This document shows positions 7,801 to 61,895 of a DNA stretch of 64,000 nt, piece by piece. Numbering within the stretch: the first letter of the stretch is position 1; every line of letters starts with the position of its first letter. Made by a program: the position numbers and the translations under genes. Location of the stretch: positions 4,644,776 to 4,708,775 of the forward strand of contig OZ240666.1 of assembly GCA_965198675.1 (NCBI GenBank), read 5' to 3'. The notes below the pieces were generated by a model. That model worked only from the letters and a program-made list of their open reading frames with translations. It was not told the DNA's origin and made no database searches. Source of the DNA: Prochloron sp. GTDB lineage: Bacteria > Cyanobacteriota > Cyanobacteriia > Cyanobacteriales > Prochloraceae.

Positions 7801-7955
7801 TAGCAGTTACCAGTTACCAGTTACCAGTTACCAGTTATGAGTTACCAGTTATGAGTTACCAGTTTATTCAGTCAGAGAAGCGGATTATAACATTTCTCGC
7901 ACGCCCAGGCGGTTGCTATATCTGACGACAGTAACTTTCTCCTGGTTCCATTCAG
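7801..7955 (+). repeat. about 160-bp repeat unit, copy b
   Basis: Same core as 7571..7731 with one substitution and a different number of heptamer units. Confidence 0.85.
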
Positions 7956-11564: not shown

Positions 11565-11819
11565 TAACCGATCCCCCCTCTAAAGAAGGTTGCTCCTCCT
11601 AGACTGTCCGCCCTTCGGGCGGACTGGGAGGCCGATAGGTTACCAGCCCACGAATCTAGTATTCGTAGCCGTTATTTGAGTCATCTCACCCTAGGGTGCT
11701 TTCCAGCTCTAGGCTCTGAGGTCAAAGGTTAAACAGTTTTAGCGGGATTAAGACAGTGCTTTTGGCGCGACAAGCTCAGATAACCGGGAGAGGAAAACAT
11801 TACCCGTTTTGGAGGACGA
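11564..11819 (+). ncRNA. putative omega-RNA of the decayed IscB element
   Basis: Lies immediately upstream of the iscB remnant. It shares sequence islands with the omega-RNA-like region upstream of the intact iscB: CCCC(C/G)CTCT(A/G)AAGA, CCCACGAAT and GTTAAACAG(C/T)TTTA. Confidence 0.45.
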
Positions 11820-12475: not shown

Positions 12476-12553
12476 ACGGCAAATAAATTTGCCCTCCTCG
12501 CGTTTCCTCCCCGCTCTAAAGAGACGGGGTTTCGACGCTACCGGATGCTCATC

Positions 12554-13714
12554 ATGAAAGCCATGATTCTGGCGGCAGGGAAGGGGACTCGCGTGCGTCC
12601 TATTACTCATACAATACCTAAACCCCTAATTCCTATCCTGGAAAAGCCAGTGATGGAGTTTTTATTAGAACTGTTACGAGAACATGGATTCAATCAGATT
12701 ATGGTGAATGTTAGTCACCTAGCAGAGGAGATCGAAAGCTATTTCCGCGACGGTCAACGCTTTGGGGTTCAAATCGGCTATTCTTTTGAAGGCAGAATTG
12801 AAGAAGGGAAGCTCATAGGAGAAGCGTTAGGTTCTGCTGGTGGACTTAAACTTATTCAGGATTTTAATCCTTTCTTTGATGATACCTTTGTGGTCCTCTG
12901 CGGCGATGCTCTCATTGACCTAAATTTGACGGAAGTGGTGAAATGGCATAAGGAAAAAGGAGCGATCGCTACGGTGGTGACCAAGTCAGTACCTCGGGAA
13001 ACTGTTTCCAGTTACGGGGTTGTGGTCGCTGACCATGACCAGAAAATTAAAAGCTTCCAGGAAAAGCCCTCTGTAGAGAGAGCGCTCAGTACCAATATAA
13101 ATACTGGCATTTACATTTTTGAACCGGAAGTAATTGACTTCATTCCTCCTGGTGTTAAATACGATATTGGCAGCGATCTATTTCCTAAGTTAGTAGAAAA
13201 GGGTGCTCCTTTCTACGCTACCTGTATGGACTTTGAATGGGTAGATATCGGCAAAGTACCGGACTACTGGCACGCAATTAGAAGCGTTTTATTGGGAGAA
13301 ATAAAAAATGTGAAAATTCCTGGCAGAGAAGTAGCACCTGGTATCTATACTGGGCTGAATGTAGCTGTAAATTGGGATAAGGTGGATATAACAGGCCCAG
13401 TTTATATCGGCAGCATGACCAAAATTGAGGATGGGGCGAAGATTATCGGTCCAGCGGCTATCGGTCCCAATTGTTGCCTTTGTAGGGACACCACGGTAGA
13501 TAATAGTGTCATATTTGAATACTCTCGCTTGGCACCTAGAATCCAATTAGTGGATAAGTTGGTCTTTGGACCCTATTGCGTTGATAAAACAGGGACGGCC
13601 ATCGACGTTAGGGACGCAGAACTGGATTGGCTGATTACCGATACTCGACAAAGTCCTCCTTCCTTAGAACCCAGGGAAAAGCAGGCTATAGATGAATTGC
13701 TCAATGGATATTGA
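12554..13714 (+). CDS. sugar-phosphate nucleotidyltransferase
   Basis: MKAMILAAGKGTRVRPITHTIPKPLIPI is a nucleotidyltransferase signature, and a hexapeptide-repeat-like C-terminal half follows. Confidence 0.8.
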   Translation: MKAMILAAGKGTRVRPITHTIPKPLIPILEKPVMEFLLELLREHGFNQIMVNVSHLAEEIESYFRDGQRFGVQIGYSFEGRIEEGKLIGEALGSAGGLKLIQDFNPFFDDTFVVLCGDALIDLNLTEVVKWHKEKGAIATVVTKSVPRETVSSYGVVVADHDQKIKSFQEKPSVERALSTNINTGIYIFEPEVIDFIPPGVKYDIGSDLFPKLVEKGAPFYATCMDFEWVDIGKVPDYWHAIRSVLLGEIKNVKIPGREVAPGIYTGLNVAVNWDKVDITGPVYIGSMTKIEDGAKIIGPAAIGPNCCLCRDTTVDNSVIFEYSRLAPRIQLVDKLVFGPYCVDKTGTAIDVRDAELDWLITDTRQSPPSLEPREKQAIDELLNGY

Positions 13715-16778: not shown

Positions 16779-17393
16779 AAATATGTCAAGCCAAGAGAGG
16801 CAGCGGAAAAACTCGGGGTTCATGTCAGAACTCTTGTGCGATGGCACAATGAAGGAAGAATCAAAGTCATCAAAACCCCATCTGGACAACGAAGATATGA
16901 CGTTGAATCCTACACTGTTGGAATTGAAAAAGAGTGAACCACAGTTATTTATGCCAGGGTTAGTTCCAGAAATCAACGGCCTGACCTTCAAAGACAAATT
17001 GCCGCCATCAGTAACTTGTACCCCACCGCAGAAATCATCAGCGAAATCGGGGGAGGATTTAACTTCAAAAGAAAAAAACTTACAGCCTTATTGGGGAGAG
17101 TCATGCAAGGAGATGTCGCAAGAATTATTATCGCACACAAAGACAGACTGGCAAGATTCGGGTTCGACTTCTATCAATGGTTCTGTGAGCAATTTGACTG
17201 TAAAATCTTGGTTCTCAACGAGAAAAACTTGTCTCCAGAAGCAGAAATGGTTGAAGACATCCTCGCCATCCTCCACTGCTTCAGTAGCAGACTCTATGGA
17301 CTCAGAAAGTATAAAACTAAGGTCGAGGAAGATCAAGATTTATCCAAGCTCAGAGCTAAAAAAGGAGTGGAAGAAATGGGTAGCAGCTTGTAG
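16779..17393 (+). pseudogene. tnpA: IS607-type serine recombinase transposase with an in-frame TGA
   Basis: The MerR-like HTH (KYVKPREAAEKLGVHVRTLVRWHNEGRIKVIKTPSGQRRYD) and the catalytic core (VIYARVSSRNQ...IAHKDRLARFGF) share one frame, separated by a TGA at 16935..16937. No canonical start codon is present. Confidence 0.75.
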
Positions 17394-18444
17394 ATATAGT
17401 TTTAATAAGGCCATTGCTTATCAAAAAGAAAATGGCGGGCTGGGGAAACAAAAATTACGCAATATTATCATGCAATCAGATTTACCGGAATGGGTAAAAG
17501 AAACTCCTTGCCATATAAGACAGAATGCCATTTTTGATGCACATCAAGCTTACTCTAAAAGTCAAAATTGTAAATTTAGAAGTTGTCAGGCTCCCAGACA
17601 AACAATCAAATTTAACAATAGCAACTACACAAAAGGAAAATGGTACTCAAGATTAACCAAAGGAAAAGATTTTCAAAGTAGCGAACCCATACCCACCAGC
17701 AGTGCTTATGCTACTCAAATAATAAAAACTAAGTGTGGGGATTGGTTTGCGGTTTTTTTAGAAGAAGTCAAACCAAGTGCTAATAATGTAGATGGAATAA
17801 TCGCAATAGATCCAGGAGTGAGAACATTTCTGACAGGATTTGATGGCCAATCATTTATGGAAATTGGAGTCGGGGATATAAGAAAAATAACCAGGTTATG
17901 CCAGCATTTAGACCAACTAATGAGTCTCAGAGGCTTATCTAAATCGAAAAGGCAAAGACAAGAGATGAGAAAAGCGGCAGCAAGAAGTCGAAGAAGAATC
18001 AGAAACTTAATCGATGAATGTCATCGTCAGGCAGCTTCTTGGTTGAGCAAAAATTATCAAATAATCTTCTTGCCGACATTTGAGACAAGCCAGATGACAA
18101 AAAAGAAAAAACGGAAAATAAGAAGCAAAACTGCAAGACAAATGTTAAGTTGGTCACATTATAGGTTTAAACAGGTCGATCAAAATCGAGCTGAGTTAAG
18201 TGGCTGTCAGGTAATTGATGTGACAGAAGAATTTACCAGCAAAACTTGTACCAAATGTGGCCGTATTCACACAAAACTGGGTGGCAATAAAGTGTTTAAA
18301 TGTCCAGAATGTGGACATGAAATCAATCGGGATTTTAACGGTGCTGTATTGCTTTTGCGATCAGCTTTGAGGGATACCTCCGTCACTTTTTCAAGTGATG
18401 CTATTGTCGTGCAAGGCGATATTATATCGCTTTGTACCGCATAA
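17296..18444 (+). CDS. tnpB: TnpB (RuvC-like RNA-guided nuclease, IS607-associated type)
   Basis: 383 aa from the ATG at 17296: IAIDPGVRT (RuvC-I), zinc finger CTKCG...CPECG, and NRDFNGA (RuvC-III). The upstream part of the 553-aa track ORF is out-of-frame tnpA sequence. Confidence 0.85.
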   Translation: MDSESIKLRSRKIKIYPSSELKKEWKKWVAACRYSFNKAIAYQKENGGLGKQKLRNIIMQSDLPEWVKETPCHIRQNAIFDAHQAYSKSQNCKFRSCQAPRQTIKFNNSNYTKGKWYSRLTKGKDFQSSEPIPTSSAYATQIIKTKCGDWFAVFLEEVKPSANNVDGIIAIDPGVRTFLTGFDGQSFMEIGVGDIRKITRLCQHLDQLMSLRGLSKSKRQRQEMRKAAARSRRRIRNLIDECHRQAASWLSKNYQIIFLPTFETSQMTKKKKRKIRSKTARQMLSWSHYRFKQVDQNRAELSGCQVIDVTEEFTSKTCTKCGRIHTKLGGNKVFKCPECGHEINRDFNGAVLLLRSALRDTSVTFSSDAIVVQGDIISLCTA

Positions 18445-18890
18445 ATGTATCAGCAATTTATTCATTGTGTGAAATTCTTAATTTTCTCCTTGTGTCTTGT
18501 GGGAGTTAGTTCTGCACTAATATTCACCATCGGCTTGATTCTATTCGTGATAGAATGGCCGAAGAAATAACAAGGATATAACACTCTCCGTGTCAGCTAA
18601 AGAGGCGCGTCCCAAACAAGGCTGACACTTCCCCTCCTCAAACAGTGACCAGGACGCCAAGGGCGGGACGCCAAGGGCGGTTGCTTGCGCAAAGCTTCGC
18701 AATACCAGTTACCAGTTACCAGTCCTGCTCATGCCAACCGGGGCAGTCAGGCAGTTACCAGTCCTGCTCAGGTAAACCGGGGCAGTCAGGCAGGCGTCTG
18801 GTGCGGGGTTGGACCCACCCCCCACTGCTAAAGGGTAAATTCTCTATTAACAATAATTCACATTTTAATTGTAGCACACACTACTGTATA

Positions 18891-20677: not shown

Positions 20678-21579
20678 GAACCCATTTGAGATCTTTTTAA
20701 GTAGTGGCTAGCCTTTTAAGCATCAGTCGGACAAAACATAGACTAATCTTGGTATTAGCCTGCTCAAGAGTCCTTTCAAAGTTTTTGACCAAACTCTTGC
20801 ATCTTTCCATCCACGAATTAGTTCTTTCAATCACCCACCGCGCTTTTACTGGCACAAAACCGGTTTTTCCTTCCTTTTTCTTTTGAGCTTTTGATGGTTT
20901 ACGGGAGACCTTAAATCTAATCTTAGTCATAATCGCCGGATAAATTTTATGTAATTCCTGGGTCAGTTTTTCTGGGTGATATCCATGGTCAAGCAAAATG
21001 GTAATCTTGGGGATGTTGACTGGTTTAGACTTGAAATAATCTATGTTTTTCGATAACATTTCAATCAAACCCACATCGTCAGATACCGATGCTTTGGTGC
21101 AATGACTAAAAAAAGGAAAGCCCAAAGTATCTACTGCTAGATGTCTTTTAATACCATTGGTAGACTTGTAAAAACAAAACCCTTTCGACTTTACACTGGC
21201 GTTACAGGTATTTTTTACCGCTTGGGAGTCAATGATGATTAGGGTTGTCCATTGCCCTTTTTTTTTAACTTGCTGACGGACTCTACTATGCAAGATATCT
21301 CTGATTGCTTCGATTACTCCAAGCGATCGCCACTGTTTGTAGTACCAAAATACTGTGGAATAGGGGGGCAAGTCTTTGGGTAAGTCACACCAATTACAAC
21401 CATTCTTTAATTGGTACAAGATACCATCTAAAATCTGCCTTTTACTCCATTTTGGTGGTCTTGTCTGTTTCTTTTTGGGCAACAGAGGTTCTATTATTTT
21501 CCACTCCCCGTCTGTCAAACTACTTGAGTACGGCATTTTTTCCCTATTTTACTCCACAACAGAGATCTCAAATGGGTTC
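20678..21579 (-). mobile_element. IS5-family insertion sequence
   Basis: Perfect 17-bp terminal inverted repeats GAACCCATTTGAGATCT (20678..20694 and 21563..21579) are flanked by a 4-bp TATA duplication (20674..20677 and 21580..21583). Confidence 0.85.
20697..21536 (-). CDS. IS5-family DDE transposase
   Basis: 279 aa; MPYSSSLTDGEWKIIEPLLP...ILDGILYQLKNGCNWCDLPKDLPPYSTVFWYYKQW...IDSQAVKN...DHGYH...VIERTNSW, typical of the family. Confidence 0.9.
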   Translation of the reverse strand: MPYSSSLTDGEWKIIEPLLPKKKQTRPPKWSKRQILDGILYQLKNGCNWCDLPKDLPPYSTVFWYYKQWRSLGVIEAIRDILHSRVRQQVKKKGQWTTLIIIDSQAVKNTCNASVKSKGFCFYKSTNGIKRHLAVDTLGFPFFSHCTKASVSDDVGLIEMLSKNIDYFKSKPVNIPKITILLDHGYHPEKLTQELHKIYPAIMTKIRFKVSRKPSKAQKKKEGKTGFVPVKARWVIERTNSWMERCKSLVKNFERTLEQANTKISLCFVRLMLKRLATT

Positions 21580-22180: not shown

Positions 22181-22899
22181 CCCTAAATCTGTTTATCTCT
22201 AAAGTACTCATTCTAAGTTTACCACACTTCCAGCGCTTTGACAAACCTGTTTGCTTTCGGTGACACCCAGAAATTTATCTTGGTGTTGTTCAATGAGATA
22301 TGAGGTATGATGAGTAAAGAGCAAGTTATCCATTCTGAGGTTAGCCCAGGACTTATCTTCCCCATCGGCTTGATTCTATTTATTAGAAAATTTCCTAAGA
22401 GAGGAAGACGATCAAACACTCTCCGTGTCAGCTAAAGAGGCGCGTCCCAAACAAGGCTGACACTTCCCCTCCTCAAACAGTGACCAGGACGCCAAGGGCG
22501 GGACGCCAAGGGCGGTTGCTTGCGCAAAGCTTCGCAATACCAGTTACCAGTTACCAGTCCTGCTCATGCCAACCGGGGCAGTCAGGCAGTTACCAGTCCT
22601 GCTCAGGCAAACCGGGGCAGTCAGGCAGGCGTCTGGTGCGGGGTTGGACCCACCCCCCGAGCCAAGCTCCCAGGAGGGGGGTTGGGGGGTGGGTTGCTGC
22701 ATAACTGCTAAAGGGTAAATTCTCTATTAACAATAATTCACATTTTAATTGTAGCACACACTACTGTATATGCTATGATATGATAGTGGATAGTAAAATA
22801 GGAAACAATCGATACAGAAATGGCTATACCAGAAGTTGCGCCAAAGGCGAATCTCCTCCTGACTTACCCGGTAATAAAAAAGAAGAGAAGGAGAAAACT

Positions 22900-32372: not shown

Positions 32373-32948
32373 TTAAAATTTATTCGTTAAGTTAGGTAAA
32401 AAGAACTTGATAACACCGACAAAAAAGGCACTTGCCAAAGCAACTGTGATAGTACGATTGAGAAACTCTTGATTACTTATACGCTTGTCCAAACCACTAA
32501 CTTCTTTCTCCAAAGCCTTAACATCACCACTAAGTTTAGTAACATTTTCCGATAGCTTATCTACTTTGTTATCCAACTTATCTATCTTCTGATTAACCTC
32601 CTCTCTCAACTCATTTATTTTGCGATCCACATTCTGGTTCAACTCATTTATTTTGCGATCCACACTCTCGTTTAATTCATCTATCTTGCGATCCAGCTGA
32701 TCTATTTTGCGATCGACACTCTGGTTCAACTCATTTATTTTGCGATCGACACTCTGGTTCAACTCATTTATTTTGCGATCGACACTCTGGTTCAACTCAT
32801 TTATTTTGCGATCGACATTCTGGTTCAACTCATTTATTTTGCGATCCACACTCTCGTTTGCCAGATCTATCTTGCTATCCAGCTTATCTATTTTCCGATC
32901 CAGCTTGTCGAGGATTTCCTTGAGTGAGACTTCAACTGCTACCGTCAT
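32373..32948 (-). CDS. tail-anchored coiled-coil protein with 11-aa tandem repeats
   Basis: VDRKINELNQ(N/S) is repeated about 6 times (33-bp DNA repeats, about 32600..32860). There is one C-terminal TM helix. Confidence 0.6.
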   Translation of the reverse strand: MTVAVEVSLKEILDKLDRKIDKLDSKIDLANESVDRKINELNQNVDRKINELNQSVDRKINELNQSVDRKINELNQSVDRKIDQLDRKIDELNESVDRKINELNQNVDRKINELREEVNQKIDKLDNKVDKLSENVTKLSGDVKALEKEVSGLDKRISNQEFLNRTITVALASAFFVGVIKFFLPNLTNKF

Positions 32949-38039: not shown

Positions 38040-38348
38040 GAGTTTATATCGGATTTACGCTAGTTACATAGAAGTACAACTCAATTTTTAATCCCACATG
38101 GGATGTAAATTCATCACCAGACAACGGGGTTCCGGTCGATAAATTTCCACTTGTCGCTGCTGTGGAAAGATTTTCCAGCCCTTCTCTTGCATAGCATCTA
38201 TCTACAGGACATTTTCGACTTGCAATCCAATATGCGCAACTCTAATAGCAGTTACCAGTTACCAGTTACCAGTTACCAGTTATCAGGGGTATGATGTTGG
38301 CTCAAACCCACCATCAACGCCAGACCCTATTTAACCAAGTGATGAGGA

Positions 38349-43396: not shown

Positions 43397-43513
43397 AACA
43401 ACTTACTCACCTTTCAGTTACCAGTGACCAGTAATCACGTACCATGGTAGCAGCTCAACCTTGGGTTTGAGGCCCCCACCACTTATTTGGTGGCAAGCCA
43501 CTTATTGGTGGAA

Positions 43514-43670
43514 GGTAACTGGTAACTGCCTGACTGCCCCGGTTGGCATGAGCAGGACTGGTAACTGGTAACTGGTAACTGCCTGACTGCCCCGGTTGGC
43601 ATGAGCAGGACTGGTAACTGGTAACTGGTAACTGGTAACTGGTAACTGGTAACTGGTAACTGGTAACTGT
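43514..43670. repeat. heptamer (GGTAACT/CAGTTAC) tandem arrays interleaved with a 33-bp module
   Basis: Runs of GGTAACT (up to about 8 units) alternate with two copies of GCCTGACTGCCCCGGTTGGCATGAGCAGGACTG. The same modules occur at 9480-9520, 18700-18800 and 22540-22640. Confidence 0.9.
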
Positions 43671-43778
43671 CATGGTACAAGGTCACTGTTTTACCATTTC
43701 GCCAAGCCTCCAAACCGGACTGGATGGTCAATTAACTCCATACATCATTGCACAATAAATAATAACCCTACTCCAACG

Positions 43779-45452: not shown

Positions 45453-46568
45453 TTAGAAATAGGTGCGATCTCGCTTCTTTAAATACATCTTGCCAAGTTC
45501 TGCTAAAGGCTTTAATCTATCAATATATGCTACCAAAGTAGCAACTCGTTCTCTTTGACTTAGTTCCTCTTGCAGCTCTACAATTAGCTCTGCTTGTTTT
45601 TGGATTTGACATTGCAACAACTGGCAATTTTGAGTCTTTTCCTCCAGGAGAGATTGCTGTGCGGTGAGTTGCTTTTGTAAATTATCTACCAGCTCTGCTT
45701 GTTCTTGAATTTGACGTTGCAACGATTCGCAATTTTGAGTCTTTTCCTCCAGGAGAGATTGCTGTGCGGTGAGCTGCTTTTGTAAGTTATCTATCAGCTC
45801 TGCTTGCTCTTGAGTTTGACGTTGCAACGATTCGCAATTTTGAGTCCTTTCCTCCAGGAGAGATTGCTGTGCGGTGAGTTGCTTTTGTAAATTATCTACC
45901 AGCTCTGCTTGTTCTTGAGTTTGACGTTGCAACGATTCGCAATTTTGAGTCCTTTCCCCCAGGAGAGATTGCTGTGCGGTGAGTTGCTTTTGTAAATTAT
46001 CTACCAGCTCTGCTTGTTCTTGAGTTTGACGTTGCAACGATTCGCAATTTTGAGTCCTTTCCTCCAGGAGAGATTTCTGTGCGATAAGCTGCTTTTGTAA
46101 GTTATCTAAGAGCTGGGTTTGCTCTTCAGCTTGCTGTTGCAGAGACTGAGAACTTTCTGCTTGAAGACTTGCAAGAGATGTTTGTTCGGCGAGGTGCTTT
46201 TCTAACTCAGTAATGCGTTTTCTCTGTGTTTCAATTTGCTCTATTGTAGAATCATTCTTTTCCTTGATTTCTTTATCCTCAGCTTCTGGTGTACCAGTTA
46301 CAATAGCAATCTTAACTTGTGTTGGGGATTCGTTGGTACCTTCTGTATCAGTTTCAATAGCAACAGTTTTCTCGGCTTCATTGCTGGCGATCGCCATTGA
46401 ACCCAAAACGAAGCGCTCGATTAATTCAGATTTAGATAATTGAGCTTTCTCAGCGATTCGATTGAGCAAATCAAATGCCTTCGACGTTAGGGAAATGCCT
46501 ACCTTTGATTTACTTTCCCCAGAATCTGAGGGTCTACGCCTTTTTCTTGCCATGGCATCTTTCTCCAA
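45453..46568 (-). CDS. ribbon-helix-helix plus long repetitive coiled-coil protein
   Basis: N-terminal CopG-like SKVGISLTSKAFDLLNRIAEKAQLSKSELIERFV, followed by about five 35-aa (105-bp) tandem repeats LQKQLTAQQSLLEERTQNCESLQRQTQEQAELVDN. Confidence 0.6.
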   Translation of the reverse strand: MEKDAMARKRRRPSDSGESKSKVGISLTSKAFDLLNRIAEKAQLSKSELIERFVLGSMAIASNEAEKTVAIETDTEGTNESPTQVKIAIVTGTPEAEDKEIKEKNDSTIEQIETQRKRITELEKHLAEQTSLASLQAESSQSLQQQAEEQTQLLDNLQKQLIAQKSLLEERTQNCESLQRQTQEQAELVDNLQKQLTAQQSLLGERTQNCESLQRQTQEQAELVDNLQKQLTAQQSLLEERTQNCESLQRQTQEQAELIDNLQKQLTAQQSLLEEKTQNCESLQRQIQEQAELVDNLQKQLTAQQSLLEEKTQNCQLLQCQIQKQAELIVELQEELSQRERVATLVAYIDRLKPLAELGKMYLKKRDRTYF

Positions 46569-46834: not shown

Positions 46835-48625
46835 TTAACGGTTAAAAACGCGACCACGCCATTTATTCAACCGCAGTTCTCCAATAGAAGCAACGGGACG
46901 CAAGTCGGCAATCTTTTCTCGCAAAGCAGCAATTTCCCGCTCTTGCTCTTCTGACTGCTGTTCTAAAGCCTCATAATCTCCTTCAATAGTAACACTAGCA
47001 GTGACTGGGCTGGGAACTTGCACCGTAATAGCAGTGGTACCATAAGAGGTGTTAGATTTCCACTTGTTCAACTCTGAGCTGCCAATGGTTGCCAAGGGCT
47101 GTAAATCTGCTAGCTGAGTGCGCAATTTGGCTAGTAATTCTTCCTGTTCGGCGCACTTGTTACGCATCGCTTGATAAGCTTCTTTGTGAGCTAATTCTTC
47201 CGCTGTTGGACCAATCGCTTCCGGGGGTCTGGGCTTGAGTATGGCTGCCAACAATTGATTTACATCAGTTAAATTAGTCCCTGGTGGCAATTCTCCCTCG
47301 GGAGTATTAGTCATGAGGGCTAGTTTCGTCAGAGGTTTATTCCGGGATACCAGAAGATCTTTGTCGCTACCAGAATTACCACGGAGCAGTTTGAATGTAT
47401 TGGTATAACCGAGGAGTTTCTTCCCTGTTTGGGTTTTATTACCTCGGTAATAGGGGACGATATTTTCCCCAAAAGCATCTTGATATTCGTCACTATCGAT
47501 ATAAGAATCGATTTCTGCCTCAAATCCCTCGCCGTCGAGTATTTTGCTCTGAGCGAAGGTTGAACTATAGTCGTCGGGAGCGCGACCAAGTAAATGCTTG
47601 AAATTCAACTCAATGGAGCGATAGCGGGGACAGTTTTCGAAAAAGCGAGAGCGGTATAATTCCGATTTGGCGAGTTGACGGACAAATTCCCGGACGCTAA
47701 TTTCCCCTCCTTTGAATTGGGATTCTGGGAGCACGAGTCGCTCGCTTTCCATTATGTGAGCATTGCCGAAAACTTGGCGATAGACAGCGCGAATTACCGT
47801 TTCTATTTCTTCTTCATCAGAACCCGGTACTAACTCAAAGATGGGCAAATCGCTGAATGCTTCGTATTGACTTTGAATCGAAACAGCAGTGGGGGAAAGC
47901 TTCTCCTCCTTTTTCTCCTCCTTGACACTCAGCCGAGCTAGCAGTTTCTCCGTCTCCCCCTTAAAGAGTAACTGCCAATAGGAGGGAACTCCTTCCAGGG
48001 GAACGATGGATCCGGAAGTATTGATCATCACAAACCAATTGAGACGAGAGCGATTTTGCCCCACAATGTCTTGATCGCTGCTGGAATAACCTCGCAACAA
48101 CCGGAACATATGGGGAAACCCAATGCCATTTTTCCCTGTCTGGGTTCGATATCCTCGATAATAGGGAACGATATGTTGACCGAAATTTTCCAGATATTCA
48201 TCGCTATCGATATAGGAATCTATTTCTGCCTCATAACCGAACCCGTCCAAAATGCGGGTATGAGCGATGATTTCCTCGTAGCTTTCCGGTGCGCGCCCAA
48301 GTAAATGCTTGAAATTCAATTCTACTGCCCGGTTGCGAGAGCAGTTGAGGAAAAAGCGAGAGCGGTAAAAGTCTGATTTAGCGATTTGGCGCACGAATTC
48401 CCGGACGCTAATATCCTTATTTTTCAGTTGGGATTCCGCTACAGCAAGCCTTTCGCTGTCCATGACGTGAGCATTGCCCAAAACTTGCCGATAGACGGCG
48501 CGAATGACGATGTCAATTTCTGACTCTGTTACTTTCGGGTTGAGTACGAGGGGTTCTATTTCTGCAAAGGGACTAACCCCTAATTCCGCACGACTTAAAG
48601 TAGGATTAATGAAACTCTGAACCAT
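46835..48625 (-). CDS. phycobilisome linker with two tandem linker domains and a novel repeated C-terminal tail
   Basis: 596 aa with two full linker domains (VIRAVYRQV(L/F)GNAH...LNFKHLLGRAP...EAEIDSYIDSDEY...IVPYYRG). It has no CpcD-like domain. The tail contains two ADL(Q/R)P(L/V)A(T/S)IG...LNKW(K/R) motifs. Confidence 0.85.
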   Translation of the reverse strand: MVQSFINPTLSRAELGVSPFAEIEPLVLNPKVTESEIDIVIRAVYRQVLGNAHVMDSERLAVAESQLKNKDISVREFVRQIAKSDFYRSRFFLNCSRNRAVELNFKHLLGRAPESYEEIIAHTRILDGFGYEAEIDSYIDSDEYLENFGQHIVPYYRGYRTQTGKNGIGFPHMFRLLRGYSSSDQDIVGQNRSRLNWFVMINTSGSIVPLEGVPSYWQLLFKGETEKLLARLSVKEEKKEEKLSPTAVSIQSQYEAFSDLPIFELVPGSDEEEIETVIRAVYRQVFGNAHIMESERLVLPESQFKGGEISVREFVRQLAKSELYRSRFFENCPRYRSIELNFKHLLGRAPDDYSSTFAQSKILDGEGFEAEIDSYIDSDEYQDAFGENIVPYYRGNKTQTGKKLLGYTNTFKLLRGNSGSDKDLLVSRNKPLTKLALMTNTPEGELPPGTNLTDVNQLLAAILKPRPPEAIGPTAEELAHKEAYQAMRNKCAEQEELLAKLRTQLADLQPLATIGSSELNKWKSNTSYGTTAITVQVPSPVTASVTIEGDYEALEQQSEEQEREIAALREKIADLRPVASIGELRLNKWRGRVFNR

Positions 48626-51009: not shown

Positions 51010-51589
51010 CTAAGCTACCTCAGTAATGCTGAGGATTTTGCCGCCAGTTTTGTGAATGTTTTGGATTTTCTGGGACATTTGGGCGTAACCCACCTCATAA
51101 ACCAAGTTGCTCTGCTTGTAGATTGGAGTAAGACCAGCTTTAGCAACAGCAATGCGGTAGCGCTTCCCAGTGTTGTCAGCAGCACCAGAACCAGCAGCAG
51201 GAGCGGTTACTGTCCCGGATCCATTACCTGCGGTAACCCCAATGAGCTTAGCTTGACCGCTGCGATCGCTGGTAGCATCTCCCCGCAGGAGGGTGAATCC
51301 CCGGACGTAGCTAGAGTTCTTAAACCCAAGCTGACTGCTGGTACTGCGAGCATAGGGAACCGTATTTTCCCCATAAGCACCCTGATACTCGTCGCTATCG
51401 ATATAAGAATCGATTTCTGCTTCATAACCGATAGCTTCTGCACTGACTAATCTTTGGTTGTCCAGTACGTGGATGTTGCCCAAAACCTGCTTGCTGCTTG
51501 TAAGCTGCCCGAATTACTTTCTGTACGTCTTCTTCAGTCGCCCCAGCACGCAGTTCAGTGGGTTCTGCTGACCTTACCCAGAGTGCCAT
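51010..51589 (-). pseudogene. PE rod-linker paralog, frameshifted by a 7-bp duplication and carrying an internal deletion
   Basis: MALWVRSAEPTELRAGATEEDVQKVIRAAYKQ (from the ATG at 51589) shifts frame at CAAGCAGCAAGCAG (51487..51500). About 65 aa of the linker-domain core are also absent between ...VSAEA and IGYEAEID. Confidence 0.85.
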
Positions 51590-51648
51590 TTAAATTCCTC
51601 CTTTTTTCTTATTTCCTATTTGTTATTTGTGATTTGTCAAACCCAGGG

Positions 51649-52416
51649 CTAAACTACCTCAGTAATGCTGAGAATTTTGCCCCCAGTTTTGTGAATGTTG
51701 CGCACTTGCTGGTTCAGTTGGCTGTAGTTAACCACGTATTCCAAATTGCTATATTTATTGAGAGTTGCGGGAGCAGCAGAAGTTGACACCGCAATGCGAT
51801 AGCGCTTATTGGTGTTGTCATAGGAGCCACCCCGACCCACTGCTGGTGCTTTAATGGCACTGGGTAGGTTACCTGCTACTGTAGATAACAGCTTAGTGGG
51901 CATATCCCGATCGCAGGAAGCACCACCCCGGAACAATTCAAAGGAGCGACCGTAGCTAGAATTGGGGAATCCTACCCGAGAGCTAATATTAGCGGCATAG
52001 GGAACTACATTGTCGCCGAACTTTTCCAGATACTCATCGCTACAGAGGTAGGAATCTATTTCTGCCTCAAAACCTTCCCCGTTATAGGTTTGGACGTGGG
52101 CGGAAAGTTCAGCCTGAGAGGTGGGTGCCCTCCCCAAAAGATGTTTGAAGTTCATCTCTACAAAGCGATAGGGGGGAGCGGATTGAAAAAATAAACCTTT
52201 ATACAAGGAAGACTTAGCCACCATACCCACGAAACCGCGCACGGTGATGTCTCCATTGCGCAGCATTGATTCTGCACTGGTGAGGCGATCGCTTTCCAGC
52301 ACGTGTTGGTTCCCCAAAACTTGCTTGTAAACAGCGCTAATTACTGCTTGGAGGTCTTCTTCAGTTGCACCCTCTCTTAATTCTACGGGATCTGTCTCTG
52401 TTACCCAGAATGCCAT
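51649..52416 (-). CDS. phycoerythrin-associated rod linker (linker domain plus CpcD-like C-terminus)
   Basis: 255 aa; ...VISAVYKQVLGNQHVLES...MNFKHLLGRAP...EAEIDSYLCSDEY...KRYRIAVS...VRNIHKTGGKILSITEVV. Confidence 0.85.
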   Translation of the reverse strand: MAFWVTETDPVELREGATEEDLQAVISAVYKQVLGNQHVLESDRLTSAESMLRNGDITVRGFVGMVAKSSLYKGLFFQSAPPYRFVEMNFKHLLGRAPTSQAELSAHVQTYNGEGFEAEIDSYLCSDEYLEKFGDNVVPYAANISSRVGFPNSSYGRSFELFRGGASCDRDMPTKLLSTVAGNLPSAIKAPAVGRGGSYDNTNKRYRIAVSTSAAPATLNKYSNLEYVVNYSQLNQQVRNIHKTGGKILSITEVV

Positions 52417-52513
52417 GGAAATTACTCCTGTTTTATTATTGGTTATTGGTTATTGGTTATTGGTTATTTGTTATTGATACAGCAACCAATAACAAATAAC
52501 GGGGAAGCCAGAT

Positions 52514-53315
52514 TTAGACAACCTCAGTAATAGAGAGGATTTTGCCCCCTGCTTTGTGAATTGTCTGTACTTCCTGGGACATTTGGCTATAGCTAACCAC
52601 CCGTTCCACCTTGCTATACTTATTCAGCCTTGCTGCTGCTGTTGAGGTAGAAAAAGCGATGGAGAAGCGCTTACCAGTATTGCCGTAATTTGCCCCATTC
52701 CCTACTGCTGGGGCTGCTATTGGGGTAGCCAAGTTAGCCGCGAGGGAGGTAATTAGGGTCGCCTCGTTACTATTGTCATTTGTCATTGGTTGCTGGTCCC
52801 CGAAGCAAGGAGAACATCCGATTGAAGCCCTCAGTCTTGATCCCAGTTTGGCTTTGAATGCTGCGGGGGTAAGGGACAAAATTCTCGCCAAAATTCTGGA
52901 AATACTCGTCGCTATCCAGATAAGAGTCGATTTCTGCTTCGTAGCCCCCTTCCTGATAAATTTCAACCTGTTCTATAATTTCAGCCTGATCCTGGGGAGG
53001 ACGACCCAACAAGTGCTTGCAGTTCAGCTCAATGAAACGATTCTGAGAGGAGGAGACAAAAAACAGTTTTTGATACTGTTCTGATTTTGCTACAAGACAG
53101 ACAAATCCCCGAACTGTTATATCCCCATCTCGCAGTAGGGCTTCAGCACTGTCTAGGCGATCGCATTCCATCAGGTGTTCGTTACCCAACACTTGCTTGT
53201 AAACAGCGCGAAAGACAGTTTGTAAGTCAGATTCAATTGCATGGGGGCGCAACTCCAGCGGGTCTACTTCAAAAGCATCCAGACCCAGGGTTTCGGAGCG
53301 GGCTAAAATTCCCAT
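52514..53315 (-). pseudogene. phycoerythrin-associated rod linker split by a 7-bp tandem duplication
   Basis: The linker domain (52776..53315) and the CpcD-like domain (52514..52966) are in different frames. Removing one ATGACAA unit at 52773..52786 gives a continuous 264-aa protein. Confidence 0.85.
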
Positions 53316-53405: not shown

Positions 53406-54170
53406 TTAAGCCACCTCTGTGATACTGACTATGGTCGCCCCAGTGCGATTAATCCGCTGAATTTGCGGTGTCATTTTGCCACCAGAAACGATATACTCCG
53501 TGGTGCTGCGACGGCGAGGACTGTCGAATTTAGAACCTTTAACCAGAATTTTAAAGGTTTTCTCGGTAGCATCTTGATAAGCAACGCTACGGGCCCCGGT
53601 AGCAGGGGCAATCTTGCTGCTGCTATTGGTAGCTACTTCTTGCACCAAGCGAGAAGCTTTATTACCGCTATCAATTTCTGCCACACCCCGGAACAGGGAT
53701 ACAGTGCGGGTATAACCCACCTGCTTTTGTCCCACCTGACTTACAGCACCTTGGTAATAAGGCACAGTGTTCTCCCCGAAGTTCTCCTGATACTCCAAAC
53801 TATCGATATAGGAGTCGATTTCTGCATCGTAGCCTTCTTCTACACAGGTGCAGATATGAGCGAAAACCTCACTTTGATCCGTAGGAGCGCGACCCAAGAT
53901 ATGCTTGAAGTTCAGCTCCACAAAGCGATAGGGGGCGCAGGATTCAAAATAGCGATCGCGGTAGAAGTCTGATTTAGCCACAGCCCGGACAAATTCCCGC
54001 ACTGTCAGAGTCCCCTCTAGGAACTGAGATTCCGCACTCACCAACCGCTCACTTTCCATGACGTGGGGGTTACCCAACACTTGCTTGTAAACTGCTCTAA
54101 TGGCAGCTTGTTTATCTGAAACCGTACTCGTGGACCATATTTCTACGGGTCCACCTAACACTGTGCTCAT
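53406..54170 (-). CDS. cpeD: phycoerythrin-associated rod linker (CpeD-like)
   Basis: 254 aa; ...AIRAVYKQVLGNPHVMESERL...LNFKHILGRAP...DAEIDSYIDSLEY...KTFKILV...RINRTGATIVSITEVA. Confidence 0.75.
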   Translation of the reverse strand: MSTVLGGPVEIWSTSTVSDKQAAIRAVYKQVLGNPHVMESERLVSAESQFLEGTLTVREFVRAVAKSDFYRDRYFESCAPYRFVELNFKHILGRAPTDQSEVFAHICTCVEEGYDAEIDSYIDSLEYQENFGENTVPYYQGAVSQVGQKQVGYTRTVSLFRGVAEIDSGNKASRLVQEVATNSSSKIAPATGARSVAYQDATEKTFKILVKGSKFDSPRRRSTTEYIVSGGKMTPQIQRINRTGATIVSITEVA

Positions 54171-54248: not shown

Positions 54249-55127
54249 CTAAATTTCTGTAACACTGGCGATTTGACCGCCTTGTCGGTGAATCCGCTTG
54301 TATTGTTCGGAAAGCTTATCGAACGGTACAATGTACACCTTGTTAGAGCGGCGGAATTGAGATACCCGATTAACTGCACCAGGGGAAGCATAAGCTGTAA
54401 CCTCAATGCGGTAAACCTTCCCTTGATCCGAAGCACCAGTACCGTGACGAGTACGAGCACCCAGGGTGGTATCTTGGAAAGACCAGCCATTACCAGCGGT
54501 ACCAGAAGAAGGAGCAACTACAGGGAGGGGGGTTTCCTGAATCACGTGCTTATTCAACACAGGGCTCTTACCCGCCAAACTGCCTTTCAAATCGCTGGAA
54601 GAAGCACCTCGCAACATGGCAAACATATGAGTAAACCCAACCATATTTTGTCCTGGTTGGGTTTTGTAGCCTCTGTAGTAGGGAACGAAGTCTTCTCCAT
54701 AGGCATTCTGGTATTCGTTGCTATCCAGGTAGGAATCGATTTCTGCCTCAAATCCTTCACTATCCAGGATAGTGCTGTGTGTTCTCATTTCCTCCAAACC
54801 ATCGGGAGTACGCCCCAGGAGATGCTTGAAATTCAGCTCAATTGCCCGATAACGAGGAACAGAGTCGAAGAAGCGAGAGCGATACAAGTCTGATTTAGCC
54901 ACAGCGCGGATAAATTCTCTGACGCTGAGTTCTCCCCGTTTGAACTGGGATTCCGGAATAGTGGCACGTTCGCTCTCCATGACGTAAGCATTGCCCAAAA
55001 CTTGCCGATACACGGCGCGGATAATGCTTTCAACATCTTCTTCCGAGCGACCTGGAATCAGTTCTATGGGATCTGTATCTTCAAATAGGCCAACACCTAA
55101 TTGGGATGCGGGTCCAAAAACCATCAA
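54249..55127 (-). CDS. cpeC: phycoerythrin-associated rod linker CpeC
   Basis: 292 aa; ...IIRAVYRQVLGNAYVMESER...LNFKHLLGRTP...EAEIDSYLDSNEY...YRIEVTAY...YKRIHRQGGQIASVTEI. It is the first gene of the linker array. Confidence 0.8.
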   Translation of the reverse strand: MMVFGPASQLGVGLFEDTDPIELIPGRSEEDVESIIRAVYRQVLGNAYVMESERATIPESQFKRGELSVREFIRAVAKSDLYRSRFFDSVPRYRAIELNFKHLLGRTPDGLEEMRTHSTILDSEGFEAEIDSYLDSNEYQNAYGEDFVPYYRGYKTQPGQNMVGFTHMFAMLRGASSSDLKGSLAGKSPVLNKHVIQETPLPVVAPSSGTAGNGWSFQDTTLGARTRHGTGASDQGKVYRIEVTAYASPGAVNRVSQFRRSNKVYIVPFDKLSEQYKRIHRQGGQIASVTEI

Positions 55128-59628: not shown

Positions 59629-59888
59629 GAGGGAGGATAGGGGAATTTTTCACGATACTTCTCGGGAGAGCGGAGGAAGCTCGGCTCGGCGGATAAATCC
59701 GCCGTAAAACAGTGACCAGGACGCCAAAGGCGGTTGCTTCGCAAAGCTTCGCAATACCAGTGACCAGTTACCAGGCGTATGGTGCGGGCTTTGGTCCCGC
59801 ACCAACGCCTTCCACCAATAAGTGGTTTGCCACCACTTATTTGGTGGGGGCCTCAAACCCAAGGTTGAGCTGCTACCATGGTACGTGA

Positions 59889-61187
59889 TTACTGGTCACT
59901 GGTAACTGAAAGGTGAAATTGGTAGGAGTAGCCATCTTTTCTGTGGATGGTTTCGCAATATTTATAGCTAATTCCTGAAACCCTCCCTTTCGCAGTAGTA
60001 ATATCAAAAGAACCAGTTTTTCGAGTTGCCACTCTGCCTGTATAAGTACCGATTTTTTTACCTTTAGTTACAACAGCTCTTACAATGTCTCCTGTCTGAA
60101 AACCTTTGTGAATTTTCTTTCTGGAGTTATGGCGAATCGGAAACCCATATTTATTTGTCCCGCATATCTGACGCTTCCCATGGCCTTTAGCTGCAATTAA
60201 CAAAGGTTGATAATCTTCAATGTGCAACACATCAACCTTGCCAACATTTGCAGCATCCAGCCAATGAGTTTTTGGTATGTTTTGACGGCAACGGTTATAT
60301 TTAGTTAAACCGCCTGAACCCACTTCAACCGGGAGTCCAATTAATTTCAGTTCGTCGTGCAACTTCCACCGAGTTGCATTGACTGCCGCCGCATCTGCCA
60401 ATGGTTTTTTAGCTTGAGACCAAATACGCTTGATAATATTGGATTTACTTGACAGAAACTCTTCTATTTCTTGATTACCTTTAGCTTGATTGCAATTATG
60501 GCAAGCAATCGCTAGATTCGAGACTCTATCGGAACCTCCTTTTGATTTAGGCTTAATATGCTCAACCTCTAGTCTAGTATTTTTTACTCCGCAATAGGCA
60601 CAAGTCCTGTCCCATTTTTCTAGAAGATATTCCCGCAGTTCATAACCATATAAAGTCCCCTGTTGGTATTCAATACCAGAGACTTCAGGGTTTAGCATTT
60701 TTTGAGTATCAAACCTAACTAGCTCTTGAGAAATACCAGTTACTGGGCAAAATTTAATTAGTTTGTTGACCCAAGTTAAAATATTATGAACCCGCGACAT
60801 TAGACTAGGTGGCAACCAACCTTTGGGTCTCCTCCTATTAAGAAATCTGGGCTGACGATACCGAGTTTTACGATTACGACGAGAGCGTCTAAGCTGTCTC
60901 CTAGAGGTTAAAGCTTCTCGGATTTGAAAACCTCTATGGGTTAGTTCAGCCCCCCAAATAACCCTATCGCTTTGGACAATCGCAAATCCTGTTGTCTTAG
61001 CACCTGGGTCTATTTTTAGTTGATGGTCATGAGTTACGCAATTTTCCACCTCTAAATCTTCCATTACAATGGTGAATGGATACCGTCTTAGAACTTTTGC
61101 CCTTCCTGACTTCAGCAATTTTCTTGCTTTAGCAGGATGACATGGGTCTAGTGGTTTTCGGTTTTTATCCAAGACAAATACACGCAT
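59889..61187 (-). CDS. iscB: IscB RNA-guided nuclease (apparently intact)
   Basis: 432 aa: PLMP-type N-terminus (MRVFVLDKNRKPLDPCHPAKARKLLKSGRAKVLRRYPFTI), RuvC-I KIDPGAKTTG, Arg-rich bridge RRQLRRSRRNRKTRYRQPRF, RuvC-II SQELVRFD, HNH CAYCG...EVEHIKPKSKGGSDRVSNLAIACHNCNQAKG, RuvC-III HWLDAANVG, and a DGYSY tail. Confidence 0.85.
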   Translation of the reverse strand: MRVFVLDKNRKPLDPCHPAKARKLLKSGRAKVLRRYPFTIVMEDLEVENCVTHDHQLKIDPGAKTTGFAIVQSDRVIWGAELTHRGFQIREALTSRRQLRRSRRNRKTRYRQPRFLNRRRPKGWLPPSLMSRVHNILTWVNKLIKFCPVTGISQELVRFDTQKMLNPEVSGIEYQQGTLYGYELREYLLEKWDRTCAYCGVKNTRLEVEHIKPKSKGGSDRVSNLAIACHNCNQAKGNQEIEEFLSSKSNIIKRIWSQAKKPLADAAAVNATRWKLHDELKLIGLPVEVGSGGLTKYNRCRQNIPKTHWLDAANVGKVDVLHIEDYQPLLIAAKGHGKRQICGTNKYGFPIRHNSRKKIHKGFQTGDIVRAVVTKGKKIGTYTGRVATRKTGSFDITTAKGRVSGISYKYCETIHRKDGYSYQFHLSVTSDQ

Positions 61188-61209: not shown

Positions 61210-61429
61210 GGGTTAAGTTCGCTTCGTCAATGTTTTTCAAGCTTGTTGGGCTTGCTGCACTGCCTTGCCCCTCGTAAAGCTGTTTAACAACAAGCGACAG
61301 GGCCATAAACTAGCGACGCATTCGTGGGTGTCATAACTTGAAAAACGTAGCCCACTAATGGGCTTAGACTGGTCAGCTATCCTATGAGAGAGGCACGAGA
61401 GCAACGCCTCTTCAGAGCGGGGTGCTGAC
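61210..61429 (-). ncRNA. putative IscB omega-RNA scaffold
   Basis: A 220-nt non-coding segment directly 5' of iscB on the same strand. It is duplicated at 61678..61895, with substitutions concentrated in a few patches. Confidence 0.6.
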
Positions 61430-61559: not shown

Positions 61560-61895
61560 TTCTCGGGAGTTTGGAAACCACCATTTTCAAATGGTGGAGT
61601 AAAAACGACGCGGCAAATTTATTTGCCGTCCCCCACCAGGGGGGGTGGAGTATAAATTCCACAAACTCCTCTTACGAGGGTAAAGTTCGCCTCGTCAATG
61701 TTTTCCAAGCTTGTTGGGCTTGCTACACTGCCTTACCCCTCGTAAAGCTGTTTAACAACAAGCAACAGAGCCACAAACTGGCGACGCATTCGTGGGTGTT
61801 ATGACTTGAAAAACGGAGACCTCAAAGGGCTTAGACTGGTCAGCTATCTAAAGGAGAGGCACGAAGCCCCGTCACAAAGCGAGCGGGGTGCTGAC
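61560..61895 (-). mobile_element. ORF-less IscB-element derivative (omega-RNA plus RBS plus right-end hairpin)
   Basis: It contains the second omega-RNA-like copy, the AGGAGT ribosome-binding site, then directly the GGCAAATAAATTTGCC hairpin and CTCCCGAGAA. The iscB ORF is completely absent. Confidence 0.6.
61678..61895 (-). ncRNA. orphan omega-RNA-like copy
   Basis: 218 nt, collinear with 61210..61429. Confidence 0.55.

What the first reader, a model, noticed from the sequence alone, without database searches (positions are those of the whole stretch)
52773..52786. An exact 7-bp tandem duplication splits a phycoerythrin rod-linker gene into two ORFs
The plus strand reads TTGTCAT-TTGTCAT (coding strand ATGACAA x2). 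ORF 52776..53315 encodes a complete linker domain and stops at ...RGPATNDK*. ORF 52514..52966, in another frame, continues ...TNDNSNEATL... into a CpcD-like C-terminal domain. Deleting one 7-bp unit fuses them into a 264-aa protein collinear with the intact 254- and 255-aa neighbours. The lesion is therefore a clean, potentially reversible slipped-strand event rather than random decay. A second linker gene 1.3 kb away carries a similar lesion. In a genome full of heptameric tandem repeats, this could be an on/off switch for rod composition or the footprint of a heptamer-specific mutational process.
Basis: seen in the sequence. Interest (0 to 1): 0.72.

Follow-up and report, generated by a model that had tools for sequence, protein, structure and literature searches.

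The report
7-bp duplication breaks a phycobilisome linker gene
A recent, strain-specific 7-base tandem duplication frameshifts one of five tandem light-harvesting rod-linker genes in a cyanobacterium related to sponge symbionts; this is ordinary gene decay in a redundant array, not a demonstrated genetic switch.

Summary
Window 52773-52786 reads TTGTCAT twice, which is ATGACAA twice on the coding (minus) strand. Removing one unit fuses the 179-aa linker-domain ORF to the CpcD-like tail. The result is a 264-aa protein, the same length as almost all of the best 120 homologs.

A relative that is 96-99% identical in DNA (L001) has the intact 264-aa gene with a single unit. So do four sponge-metagenome relatives. 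The duplication is therefore derived and recent.

The second lesion (51487-51500, CAAGCAG twice) is also an exact, derived 7-bp tandem duplication. That gene has lost 189 bp as well.

Linker genes 3 and 5 of this array are broken independently in every related lineage examined. The lesions include a 53-bp insertion, gene loss next to IS605-family genes, fusions between paralogs, and deletions. That pattern indicates relaxed selection and decay. Nothing supports a switch: there are only two units, the ancestor had one, and no repeat tract is conserved.

One point remains mildly interesting. Both duplications are exactly 7 bp with 0-1 nt of flanking microhomology, in a genome rich in heptamer repeats. 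This fits the known prokaryotic bias toward heptanucleotide repeats, but two events cannot establish a special process.

The parts
52773..52786 (-). Exact tandem duplication ATGACAA x2 on the coding strand. It inserts 7 nt, shifts the frame by +1 and creates the stop TGA at 52778-52776.
   Evidence: There is a single unit in relatives L001 and L024-L027. Only 1 nt of flanking microhomology is present, because the run is 15 nt.
52776..53315 (-). Upstream fragment of linker gene 3: 179 aa with a complete PF00427 linker domain, ending ...ATNDK*.
   Evidence: (PF00427, 156 bits, residues 28-151). It is identical to database protein P0012 from a 4,740,233-bp contig.
52514..52786 (-). Downstream fragment of gene 3 in the +1 frame, carrying the CpcD-like PF01383 domain. 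The first repeat unit supplies an in-frame ATG (52786-52784) that overlaps the upstream stop, so a ~90-aa product by reinitiation is conceivable but untested.
   Evidence: (PF01383, E = 3e-11). There is no good Shine-Dalgarno sequence: only GGGGA at about -17 to -13, read.
51487..51500 (-). Second exact tandem duplication, CAAGCAG x2 on the coding strand, in linker gene 5. It has 0 nt of flanking microhomology.
   Evidence: The intact ortholog L024 (253 aa) has one unit.
51010..51589 (-). Remnant of linker gene 5. It carries the 7-bp duplication plus a 189-bp in-frame deletion (junction near 51431) that removes most of PF00427.
51649..52416 (-). Linker gene 4, intact (255 aa, PF00427 + PF01383).
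53406..54170 (-). Linker gene 2, intact (254 aa, PF00427 + PF01383).
54249..55127 (-). Linker gene 1, intact (292 aa from a TTG start, called as 291 aa in relatives; PF00427 + PF01383).
52436..52476 (.). Intergenic heptamer array between genes 3 and 4 (TTATTGG on the + strand, about 5.9 copies). It differs by one 7-nt unit from relative L001.
51605..51637 (.). Degenerate intergenic heptamer array between genes 4 and 5 (about 4.7 copies).
   Evidence: It is identical in L001.

Best explanation
Linker gene 3 of a five-gene tandem array of phycoerythrin-cluster rod linkers is a very recent, strain-specific loss-of-function allele. Each gene in the array has an N-terminal PF00427 domain and a C-terminal CpcD-like PF01383 domain.

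A 7-bp segment was copied in tandem, most likely by a replication or repair slippage-type error. This shifted the frame by +1 and created a stop after the linker domain. The main product would be a 179-aa linker without the C-terminal PF01383 domain. In solved phycobilisomes that domain sits in the cavity of a rod hexamer other than the one holding its own PF00427 domain, so I infer that the truncated protein cannot join discs into a rod.

The mutation is tolerated because the array is redundant and under relaxed selection in this lineage, whose identifiable relatives are sponge symbionts. Gene 5 was hit by the same type of mutation and also carries a deletion.

Shown: the lesion, its polarity, the domain content, and the independent decay of the same two genes in relatives. 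Inferred: the slippage mechanism, the loss of function, and relaxed selection as the cause.
For: - Lesion and reconstruction.
- Ortholog length: nearly all of the best 120 homologs are 254-265 aa and most are exactly 264 aa, with 94-100% query coverage in most.
- Polarity: L001 (ENA ERZ22157276, a 4.718-Mb contig; 96-99% DNA identity, syntenic) encodes an intact 264-aa protein, P0121, with one ATGACAA unit. L024-L027 also have one unit.
- Recency: outside a mosaic tract, gene 3 differs from L001 by dS of 0.01-0.04. The 88-codon tail is still open and differs by 1 aa.
- Architecture: the fused protein aligns over residues 3-262 with solved CpcC (7eyd_N1). The solved Anabaena and Synechococcus phycobilisomes show the rod linker's PF01383 domain inside the cavities of rod hexamers (PMC8448738).
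- Decay in relatives, gene 5: L001 gene 5 has two deletions. L026/L027 and LD05 carry gene 4/5 chimeras.
- Decay in relatives, gene 3: in L025 and L027, gene 3 carries a 53-bp insertion and is split into 45 + 229 aa. Candidatus Paraprochloron terpiosi LD05 lacks gene 3 and has IS605-family genes there.
- Assembly quality: few unpaired 1-bp indels against the relatives. This argues against an error-ridden assembly.
Against: - No reads, transcripts or proteins are available, so loss of function is inferred.
- The duplicated unit supplies an ATG overlapping the new stop, so the tail might still be made.
- The gene shows no secondary decay, so it cannot be told apart from a functional split on sequence alone.
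- Slippage normally uses microhomology, and only 1 nt (site 1) and 0 nt (site 2) are present.
- The duplication rests on one assembly (a single contig).
Confidence: 0.68

Rival explanations
1. Functional gene split. The 179-aa PF00427-only protein and a ~90-aa CpcD-like protein are both made and used. The second would start at the ATG inside the first repeat unit, by termination-reinitiation at the overlapping ATGACAAATGA. The small protein might act as a rod cap or terminator, which would shorten rods.
For: - An in-frame ATG at 52786-52784 lies 8 nt upstream of the new stop.
- Both halves keep intact, high-scoring domains.
- Free-standing PF01383-only linkers occur naturally, including a 68-aa one in this operon.
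- There is no secondary decay.
Against: - No Shine-Dalgarno sequence sits at a useful distance. Real starts in the operon have AGGAG at about -8 to -14.
- None of the best 120 homologs is split at this junction.
- The lack of decay is equally explained by how recent the event is.
- Relatives lose this gene outright.
Confidence: 0.12
2. A heptamer-specific duplication process is active in this lineage. It would copy exactly 7 nt regardless of local sequence, for example through a polymerase footprint of about 7 nt or fill-in of a 7-nt staggered break. It would both seed the many heptamer arrays and inactivate genes. This is a rival for the origin of the lesion, not for its consequence.
For: - Both frameshift lesions in the array are exactly 7 bp, with 1 and 0 nt of microhomology.
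- Exact period-7 runs are 5.5-fold over expectation and have many unrelated unit sequences.
- Heptamer arrays change by whole units between strains: 7 nt and 21 nt.
- A heptanucleotide bias in prokaryotic repeats, and a 7-nt polymerase-contact idea, are already in the literature (Mrazek et al. 2007, as summarised in PMC4679880).
Against: - There are only two events.
- Period-8 and period-9 runs are equally over-represented.
- No other coding 7-bp duplication appears in about 35 kb aligned to the close relative, where the clean indels are 2-21 nt of various lengths.
- The mobile elements seen in the window have 2-bp and 5-bp target duplications, not 7 bp.
- The flanks of the three IscB-associated HEARO RNAs, taken as guides, do not match either site.
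Confidence: 0.2
3. Phase-variable on/off switch. The two-unit allele reverts to one unit at useful frequency, toggling rod composition.
For: A perfect two-copy tandem repeat can in principle contract by slippage. The genome tolerates unit-number changes in heptamer arrays.
Against: - There are two units only, and the ancestor had one.
- No tract exists at this site in any relative or paralog.
- The sister lesion sits in a gene already destroyed by a 189-bp deletion.
- Relatives inactivate the same gene irreversibly.
- Neither allele was found in JGI metagenome contigs.
Confidence: 0.04
4. Assembly or sequencing artefact. The true genome has one unit.
For: Only one assembly carries it. A closely related assembly has one unit.
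Against: - Exact 7-bp duplications are not a typical read or assembly error.
- Two such events occur, at different sequences.
- The window shows few isolated 1-bp indels against relatives.
Confidence: 0.05
5. Programmed +1 ribosomal frameshift at AAA-UGA-C restores the full-length linker.
For: The shift needed is +1 and occurs at a stop codon (AAA UGA C), which superficially resembles the prfB site.
Against: - No internal Shine-Dalgarno sequence lies 3 nt upstream.
- AAA to AAU re-pairing is poor.
- Orthologs are in frame, so the site is not conserved.
Confidence: 0.02

Closest known systems
CpcC/CpeC-type two-domain phycobilisome rod linkers (PF00427 + PF01383), e.g. Anabaena CpcC in PDB 7EYD and the cpeCDE linkers of phycoerythrin operons
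   Same: The restored protein has the same two domains in the same order and aligns end to end with solved CpcC. It sits in a cluster with CpeS, CpeT, HEAT-repeat lyase-like genes and phycobiliprotein subunits.
   Different: In this strain the reading frame is broken between the two domains. The array has five paralogs plus a small CpcD-like gene, rather than the classical three. No curated NCBIfam model names it, so the phycoerythrin assignment rests on context and on names given by sources.
Pseudogenes formed during genome erosion of host-associated cyanobacteria
   Same: Redundant genes are lost lineage by lineage through small indels, insertions of small or IS-type elements, and recombination between paralogs. 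The identifiable relatives are sponge symbionts.
   Different: The host of the window's own strain is not known from these data. The LD05 genome paper has no occurrence of the words pseudogene, linker or genome reduction.
Heptanucleotide simple-sequence repeats (STRR-type repeats of cyanobacteria; long SSRs of Mrazek et al. 2007)
   Same: The period is 7, in a genome with many heptamer arrays that vary by whole units between strains.
   Different: There are only two copies, inside a coding region. The units (ATGACAA, CAAGCAG) are unrelated to the dominant array units (CAGTTAC/ACTGGTA/ACTGGTC). The large arrays here are intergenic, and many are parts of a mobile MITE-like element.
SSR-mediated phase variation (contingency loci, e.g. 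heptanucleotide tracts at Haemophilus hmw1A)
   Same: A tandem repeat whose unit is not a multiple of 3 nt controls the reading frame.
   Different: There is no long tract, no conservation of a tract across strains and no evidence of switching. The ancestral state is a single unit.

Membership tests
Two-domain phycobilisome rod linker (CpcC/CpeC type) | N-terminal PF00427 linker domain | tested here: met
   156 bits, residues 28-151 of the 179-aa ORF.
Two-domain phycobilisome rod linker (CpcC/CpeC type) | C-terminal PF01383 (CpcD-like) domain on the same polypeptide | tested here: not met
   The domain is present (E = 3e-11) but in the +1 frame after a stop. The feature is met only after removing one 7-bp unit, and it is met in relative P0121.
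Two-domain phycobilisome rod linker (CpcC/CpeC type) | End-to-end collinearity with characterised rod linkers | tested here: met
   residues 3-262 of the fused protein align with residues 3-285 of 7eyd_N1; most of the best 120 homologs are exactly 264 aa.
Phycoerythrin-associated linker (CpeC/D/E) | Binds phycoerythrin hexamers; encoded in a cpe operon | tested here: inconclusive
   The context includes CpeS, CpeT, HEAT-repeat lyase-like genes and phycobiliprotein genes. Some homologs are named phycoerythrin-associated by their sources (P0069, P0093). No curated model reaches its cut-off. Binding cannot be tested here.
SSR phase-variation (contingency) locus | A tract of many repeat units at the site | tested here: not met
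   2.1 copies.
SSR phase-variation (contingency) locus | The tract is present in related strains, with variable unit number | tested here: not met
   Five related sequences all have one unit.
SSR phase-variation (contingency) locus | Length polymorphism within a population | not testable with these tools
   No reads are available. Two metagenome scans for either allele found nothing.
Programmed +1 frameshift site (prfB type) | Slippery codon before a stop, an internal Shine-Dalgarno about 3 nt upstream, and conservation in orthologs | tested here: not met
   The site is AAA UGA C, with GGGGA about 17 nt upstream. Orthologs are in frame.
Transposon target-site-duplication footprint | A mobile element family in the genome that makes 7-bp target duplications | tested here: inconclusive
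   Insertion polymorphisms against relatives show 2-bp (GT) and 5-bp (TATAG) duplications only. Only 64 kb of the genome was available.
Heptanucleotide SSR / STRR | Tandem period of 7 nt | tested here: met
Heptanucleotide SSR / STRR | Multi-copy array of a recurrent unit family, usually intergenic | tested here: not met
   Two copies, in coding sequence, with a unit not shared with the other arrays in the window.

The most novel reading that the evidence does not exclude
This lineage has an active mutational process that copies exactly 7 nt in tandem without needing microhomology. Such a process would explain where new heptamer arrays with many unrelated unit sequences come from, and it would be a measurable cause of gene inactivation. 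The two linker-gene lesions would then be freshly caught 'seed' events.
Probability: 0.18. Interest if true: 0.55.

Novelty: new member of a known kind. Interest (0 to 1): 0.27.

Why it matters
For annotation, the two ORFs at 52514-53315 should be treated as one frameshifted rod-linker gene, and 51010-51589 as a decayed one.

For biology, the locus shows the same two paralogs of a phycoerythrin-cluster linker array being lost repeatedly and independently across a clade related to sponge symbionts. This suggests that shorter or simpler rods are tolerated, or even favoured, in that lineage.

For mutation research, two polarised, blunt 7-bp duplications are a small direct data point on how heptanucleotide repeats arise. 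That question has been discussed since the surveys of prokaryotic repeats in 2007 but rarely examined at the level of individual events.

Tried and rejected
1. Excision footprint of an element with 7-bp target duplications. I examined every large insertion polymorphism between the window and L001 or L028. I found a MITE-like family with 2-bp GT duplications and an IS with a 5-bp duplication, and none with 7 bp.
2. Staggered cut by an RNA-guided nuclease. The window has an IscB-like gene with HEARO RNAs and TnpB-like genes. The 16-nt 5' flanks of the three HEARO RNAs, taken as guides, have no match with 4 or fewer mismatches at either duplication site. TnpB guides could not be defined.
3. A shared sequence motif. 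The two duplicated units (ATGACAA, CAAGCAG) share no convincing motif with each other or with the array units. ATGACAA is one mismatch from the intergenic ATAACAA unit, but by my estimate that is roughly a 10% coincidence (inspection).
4. Other exact 7-mer duplications as gene breakers. The one at 10741 is native in-frame pdxH sequence. The others are intergenic or shared with relatives.
5. Finding the source genome or population alleles. The exact-protein look-up of the 179-aa ORF found no contig. The genome-contig scan returned only relatives at 76% identity or less. Two metagenome scans matched neither allele. Look-ups with two phycobiliprotein ORFs, meant to extend the strain comparison, failed.
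6. Naming by NCBIfam. Only sub-threshold CpcG hits were returned.
7. The 53-bp insertion of the sponge-metagenome relatives. It has no other copy in the held loci.

Full report
**Observation**

The + strand at 52773-52786 reads TTGTCAT-TTGTCAT, so the coding (minus) strand reads ATGACAA twice. Tandem Repeats Finder and an exact scan both report it as a 15-nt period-7 run. The minus-strand ORF 53315..52776 encodes 179 aa ending ...RGPATNDK*. The +1 frame continues ...MTNDNSNEATL... to ...ILSITEVV* at 52514.

The upstream piece is a complete PF00427 linker domain, and the downstream piece carries the PF01383 CpcD-like domain. Deleting one unit gives a 795-nt ORF of 264 aa.

Chance alone gives about 3.6 exact two-copy 7-mers per window of this composition. 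One such run, at 10741, is just native pdxH coding sequence. The repeat is therefore not remarkable on its own. The comparative evidence below is what makes it meaningful.

**Polarity and age**

The restored protein finds 4,210 homologs. Most of the best 120 are exactly 264 aa, and nearly all are 254-265 aa with 63-77% identity; most cover the query in full. The exact 179-aa product exists in the database only from one 4,740,233-bp contig. Its 90% cluster also contains a 264-aa protein, P0121, from a 4,718,108-bp metagenomic contig.

The locus around P0121 (L001) is syntenic with the window and 96-99% identical in DNA. At the junction it reads aaccaatgacaa|tagtaacgagg, where the window has an extra ATGACAA. 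Four further relatives from sponge metagenomes (L024-L027) also have a single unit. The duplication is therefore derived and specific to this strain.

It is also recent. Outside a mosaic tract, gene 3 differs from L001 by dS of only 0.01-0.04. The 88-codon tail is still open and differs by one residue.

**The second lesion**

Linker gene 5 (51589..51010) is broken at 51487-51500 by CAAGCAG twice, again an exact 7-bp tandem duplication. An intact 253-aa ortholog in L024 has one unit, so this duplication is derived too. Gene 5 has also lost 189 bp (63 codons) of its PF00427 domain. It is dead regardless of the frameshift.

Flanking microhomology is 1 nt at the first site and 0 nt at the second. 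I derived this from the run lengths of 15 and 14 nt.

**Context**

The minus strand carries, in order:
- five tandem PF00427 + PF01383 linker genes (292, 254, [179 + tail], 255 aa, and the gene 5 remnant);
- a small CpcD-like gene;
- cpeS and cpeT homologs;
- a 596-aa protein with two linker domains.

Phycobiliprotein subunits and HEAT-repeat lyase-like genes lie elsewhere in the window. The restored gene-3 protein aligns end to end with solved CpcC (7eyd_N1). In the solved Anabaena and Synechococcus phycobilisomes, the rod linker's PF01383 domain is seen inside the cavities of rod hexamers (PMC8448738). I take this to mean that it occupies the hexamer next to the one holding its own PF00427 domain. 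On that reading, a linker without the domain should not be able to join discs. This step is inference.

**Organism**

A housekeeping protein from the window is 98% identical to that of the L001 genome and 92% identical to one on a 3,839,796-bp contig. The accession is Candidatus Paraprochloron terpiosi LD05, the dominant cyanobacterial symbiont of the sponge Terpios hoshinota. L025 comes from a run labelled as a sponge metagenome. The LD05 paper notes a relative, SP5CPC1, that also has phycoerythrin genes. The window therefore comes from a member of this clade. Its own host is not known from the data.

**Decay of the array in relatives**

- In L001, genes 1-4 are intact. Gene 5 has an N-terminal deletion and a second deletion that runs into the CpcD-like gene.
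- In the sponge-metagenome relatives L024-L027, gene 3 carries a 53-bp palindromic insertion at a GCGATCGC site. L025 and L027, where the whole gene is held, also show a gene-4-like 5' end, and the gene is split into 45 + 229 aa.
- Gene 5 is intact in L024. In L026 and L027 the next gene is a gene 4/5 chimera.
- In LD05, gene 3 is absent and IS605-family genes lie in its place. Genes 4 and 5 are again fused.

Genes 3 and 5 have thus been hit independently, by different mechanisms, in every lineage examined. That is the signature of relaxed selection on redundant paralogs.

**Switch and frameshifting ideas**

A contingency locus needs a tract of several units that is conserved between strains and varies in length. 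Here the tract is two units, the ancestor had one, and relatives and paralogs have none. Two scans of JGI metagenome contigs that would match either allele found nothing, so polymorphism could not be assessed.

A prfB-like +1 frameshift is unlikely. The site is AAA UGA C with no properly spaced Shine-Dalgarno sequence, and orthologs are in frame.

A functional split cannot be excluded. The first repeat unit supplies an ATG 8 nt upstream of the new stop, so the tail could be reinitiated. However, it lacks the strong AGGAG that precedes the real starts in this operon.

**Is there a heptamer-specific process?**

In favour:
- Exact period-7 runs number 20 against 3.6 expected.
- Their unit sequences are diverse.
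- Arrays differ by whole units (7 and 21 nt) between the window and its close relative.

Against:
- Periods 8 and 9 are over-represented to the same degree.
- Many of the large arrays belong to a MITE-like element family whose copies are present or absent between strains and show 2-bp target duplications.
- In about 35 kb of clean strain-to-strain alignment, the other indels are 2, 3, 4, 5, 5, 6, 17, 19 and 20 nt. There is no other coding 7-bp duplication.
- No element with a 7-bp target duplication was seen.
- The candidate guide flanks of the three HEARO RNAs do not match either site.

A heptanucleotide bias in prokaryotic repeats, and the suggestion that about 7 nt is the stretch contacted by the polymerase, are already in the literature (summarised in PMC4679880). 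Two blunt 7-bp events in 1.3 kb are suggestive but cannot carry the claim.

**Verdict**

The feature is real and correctly described. It is best read as a very recent frameshift pseudogene, or at most a split gene, in a decaying redundant linker array. The lesion type is known, and the instance appears undescribed. Interest is modest. The most novel surviving reading is an active, microhomology-independent 7-nt duplication process, which a whole-genome comparison of the two near-identical genomes could settle quickly.

Noticed in passing
window 52926-53099 (gene 3, codons 73-130): A mosaic tract. In this ~174-nt stretch dS against the close relative L001 is 1.33, compared with 0.01-0.04 on both sides, and dN/dS is 0.18. 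L001 and the sponge-metagenome relatives agree with each other here, so the window's tract appears to be the imported one. The best match among held loci is only 81% (Symploca sp. SIO2E9, L002), and no paralog in the window is the donor.
   Followed up: partly
window 43416-43692 and 59705-59914; related pieces at 18652-18793, 22487-22628, 7574-7864, 38249-38286: A modular MITE-like repeat family with embedded (CAGTTAC)n / (ACTGGTA)n heptamer arrays. Whole copies are present in the window but absent from the close relative, and are flanked by a 2-bp GT/AC duplication. Many of the 'STRR-like' arrays in this window are therefore parts of a mobile element.
   Followed up: partly
window 59889-61187 (-) with 61212-61429 (-), 61680-61895 (-) and 11564-11803 (+): An IscB-like ORF (RRXRR + HNH domains, 432 aa) lies directly downstream of a HEARO RNA. 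There are two further HEARO copies. The one at 11564 precedes overlapping ORFs at 11820-12610 that were not examined.
   Followed up: partly
window 16783-18444 (+); L028 14230-15885: A TnpB-like ORF (HTH_OrfB_IS605 + Cas12f1-like TNB, 553 aa) is intact in the window. In the close relative the equivalent stretch is called as two genes (295 + 116 aa). The relative also has a resolvase + TnpB insertion of about 2.1 kb (L028 7712-9836) that the window lacks.
   Followed up: no
window 20679-21579: A ~900-bp insertion sequence (279-aa ORF) with terminal inverted repeats GAACCCATTTGAGATC and a 5-bp TATAG target duplication. It is absent from the close relative L028.
   Followed up: partly
L025 802-854 and L027 239-291 (cut off at the 5' ends of L024 and L026): A 53-bp palindromic insertion (GATCTGTGGTAACAGATCTGGCGGGCGGGGGCACTAAGGTGCCCCCGCCCCCA) lies at a GCGATCGC site inside the gene-3 ortholog of the sponge-metagenome relatives, flanked by GATC. 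No other copy was found in the held loci.
   Followed up: partly
window 45586-46205 (inside ORF 45453-46568, minus strand): A 105-bp tandem repeat of about 5 copies at 94% identity (35-codon units) inside a 371-aa ORF with no Pfam hit recorded for its ortholog in relatives. The alignment to relative L001 is offset here, so copy number may differ.
   Followed up: no
window 32606-32858 (inside ORF 32373-32948, minus strand): A 33-bp (11-codon) tandem repeat of about 8 copies in a 191-aa ORF. Its only Pfam matches are below the curated cut-offs and go to coiled-coil or apolipoprotein-like families. It lies next to a HEAT-repeat lyase-like gene.
   Followed up: no
window 52436-52476 and 51605-51637: Heptamer arrays sit just upstream of the ribosome-binding sites of linker genes 4 and 5. 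This resembles the placement reported for TAACTGA repeats in Beggiatoaceae and cyanobacteria (PMC4679880). The first array differs by one unit from the close relative.
   Followed up: partly
window 46835-48625 (-): A 596-aa protein with two PF00427 linker domains and no PF01383 domain, conserved in all relatives (594-596 aa) directly downstream of cpeT. Its role was not examined.
   Followed up: no
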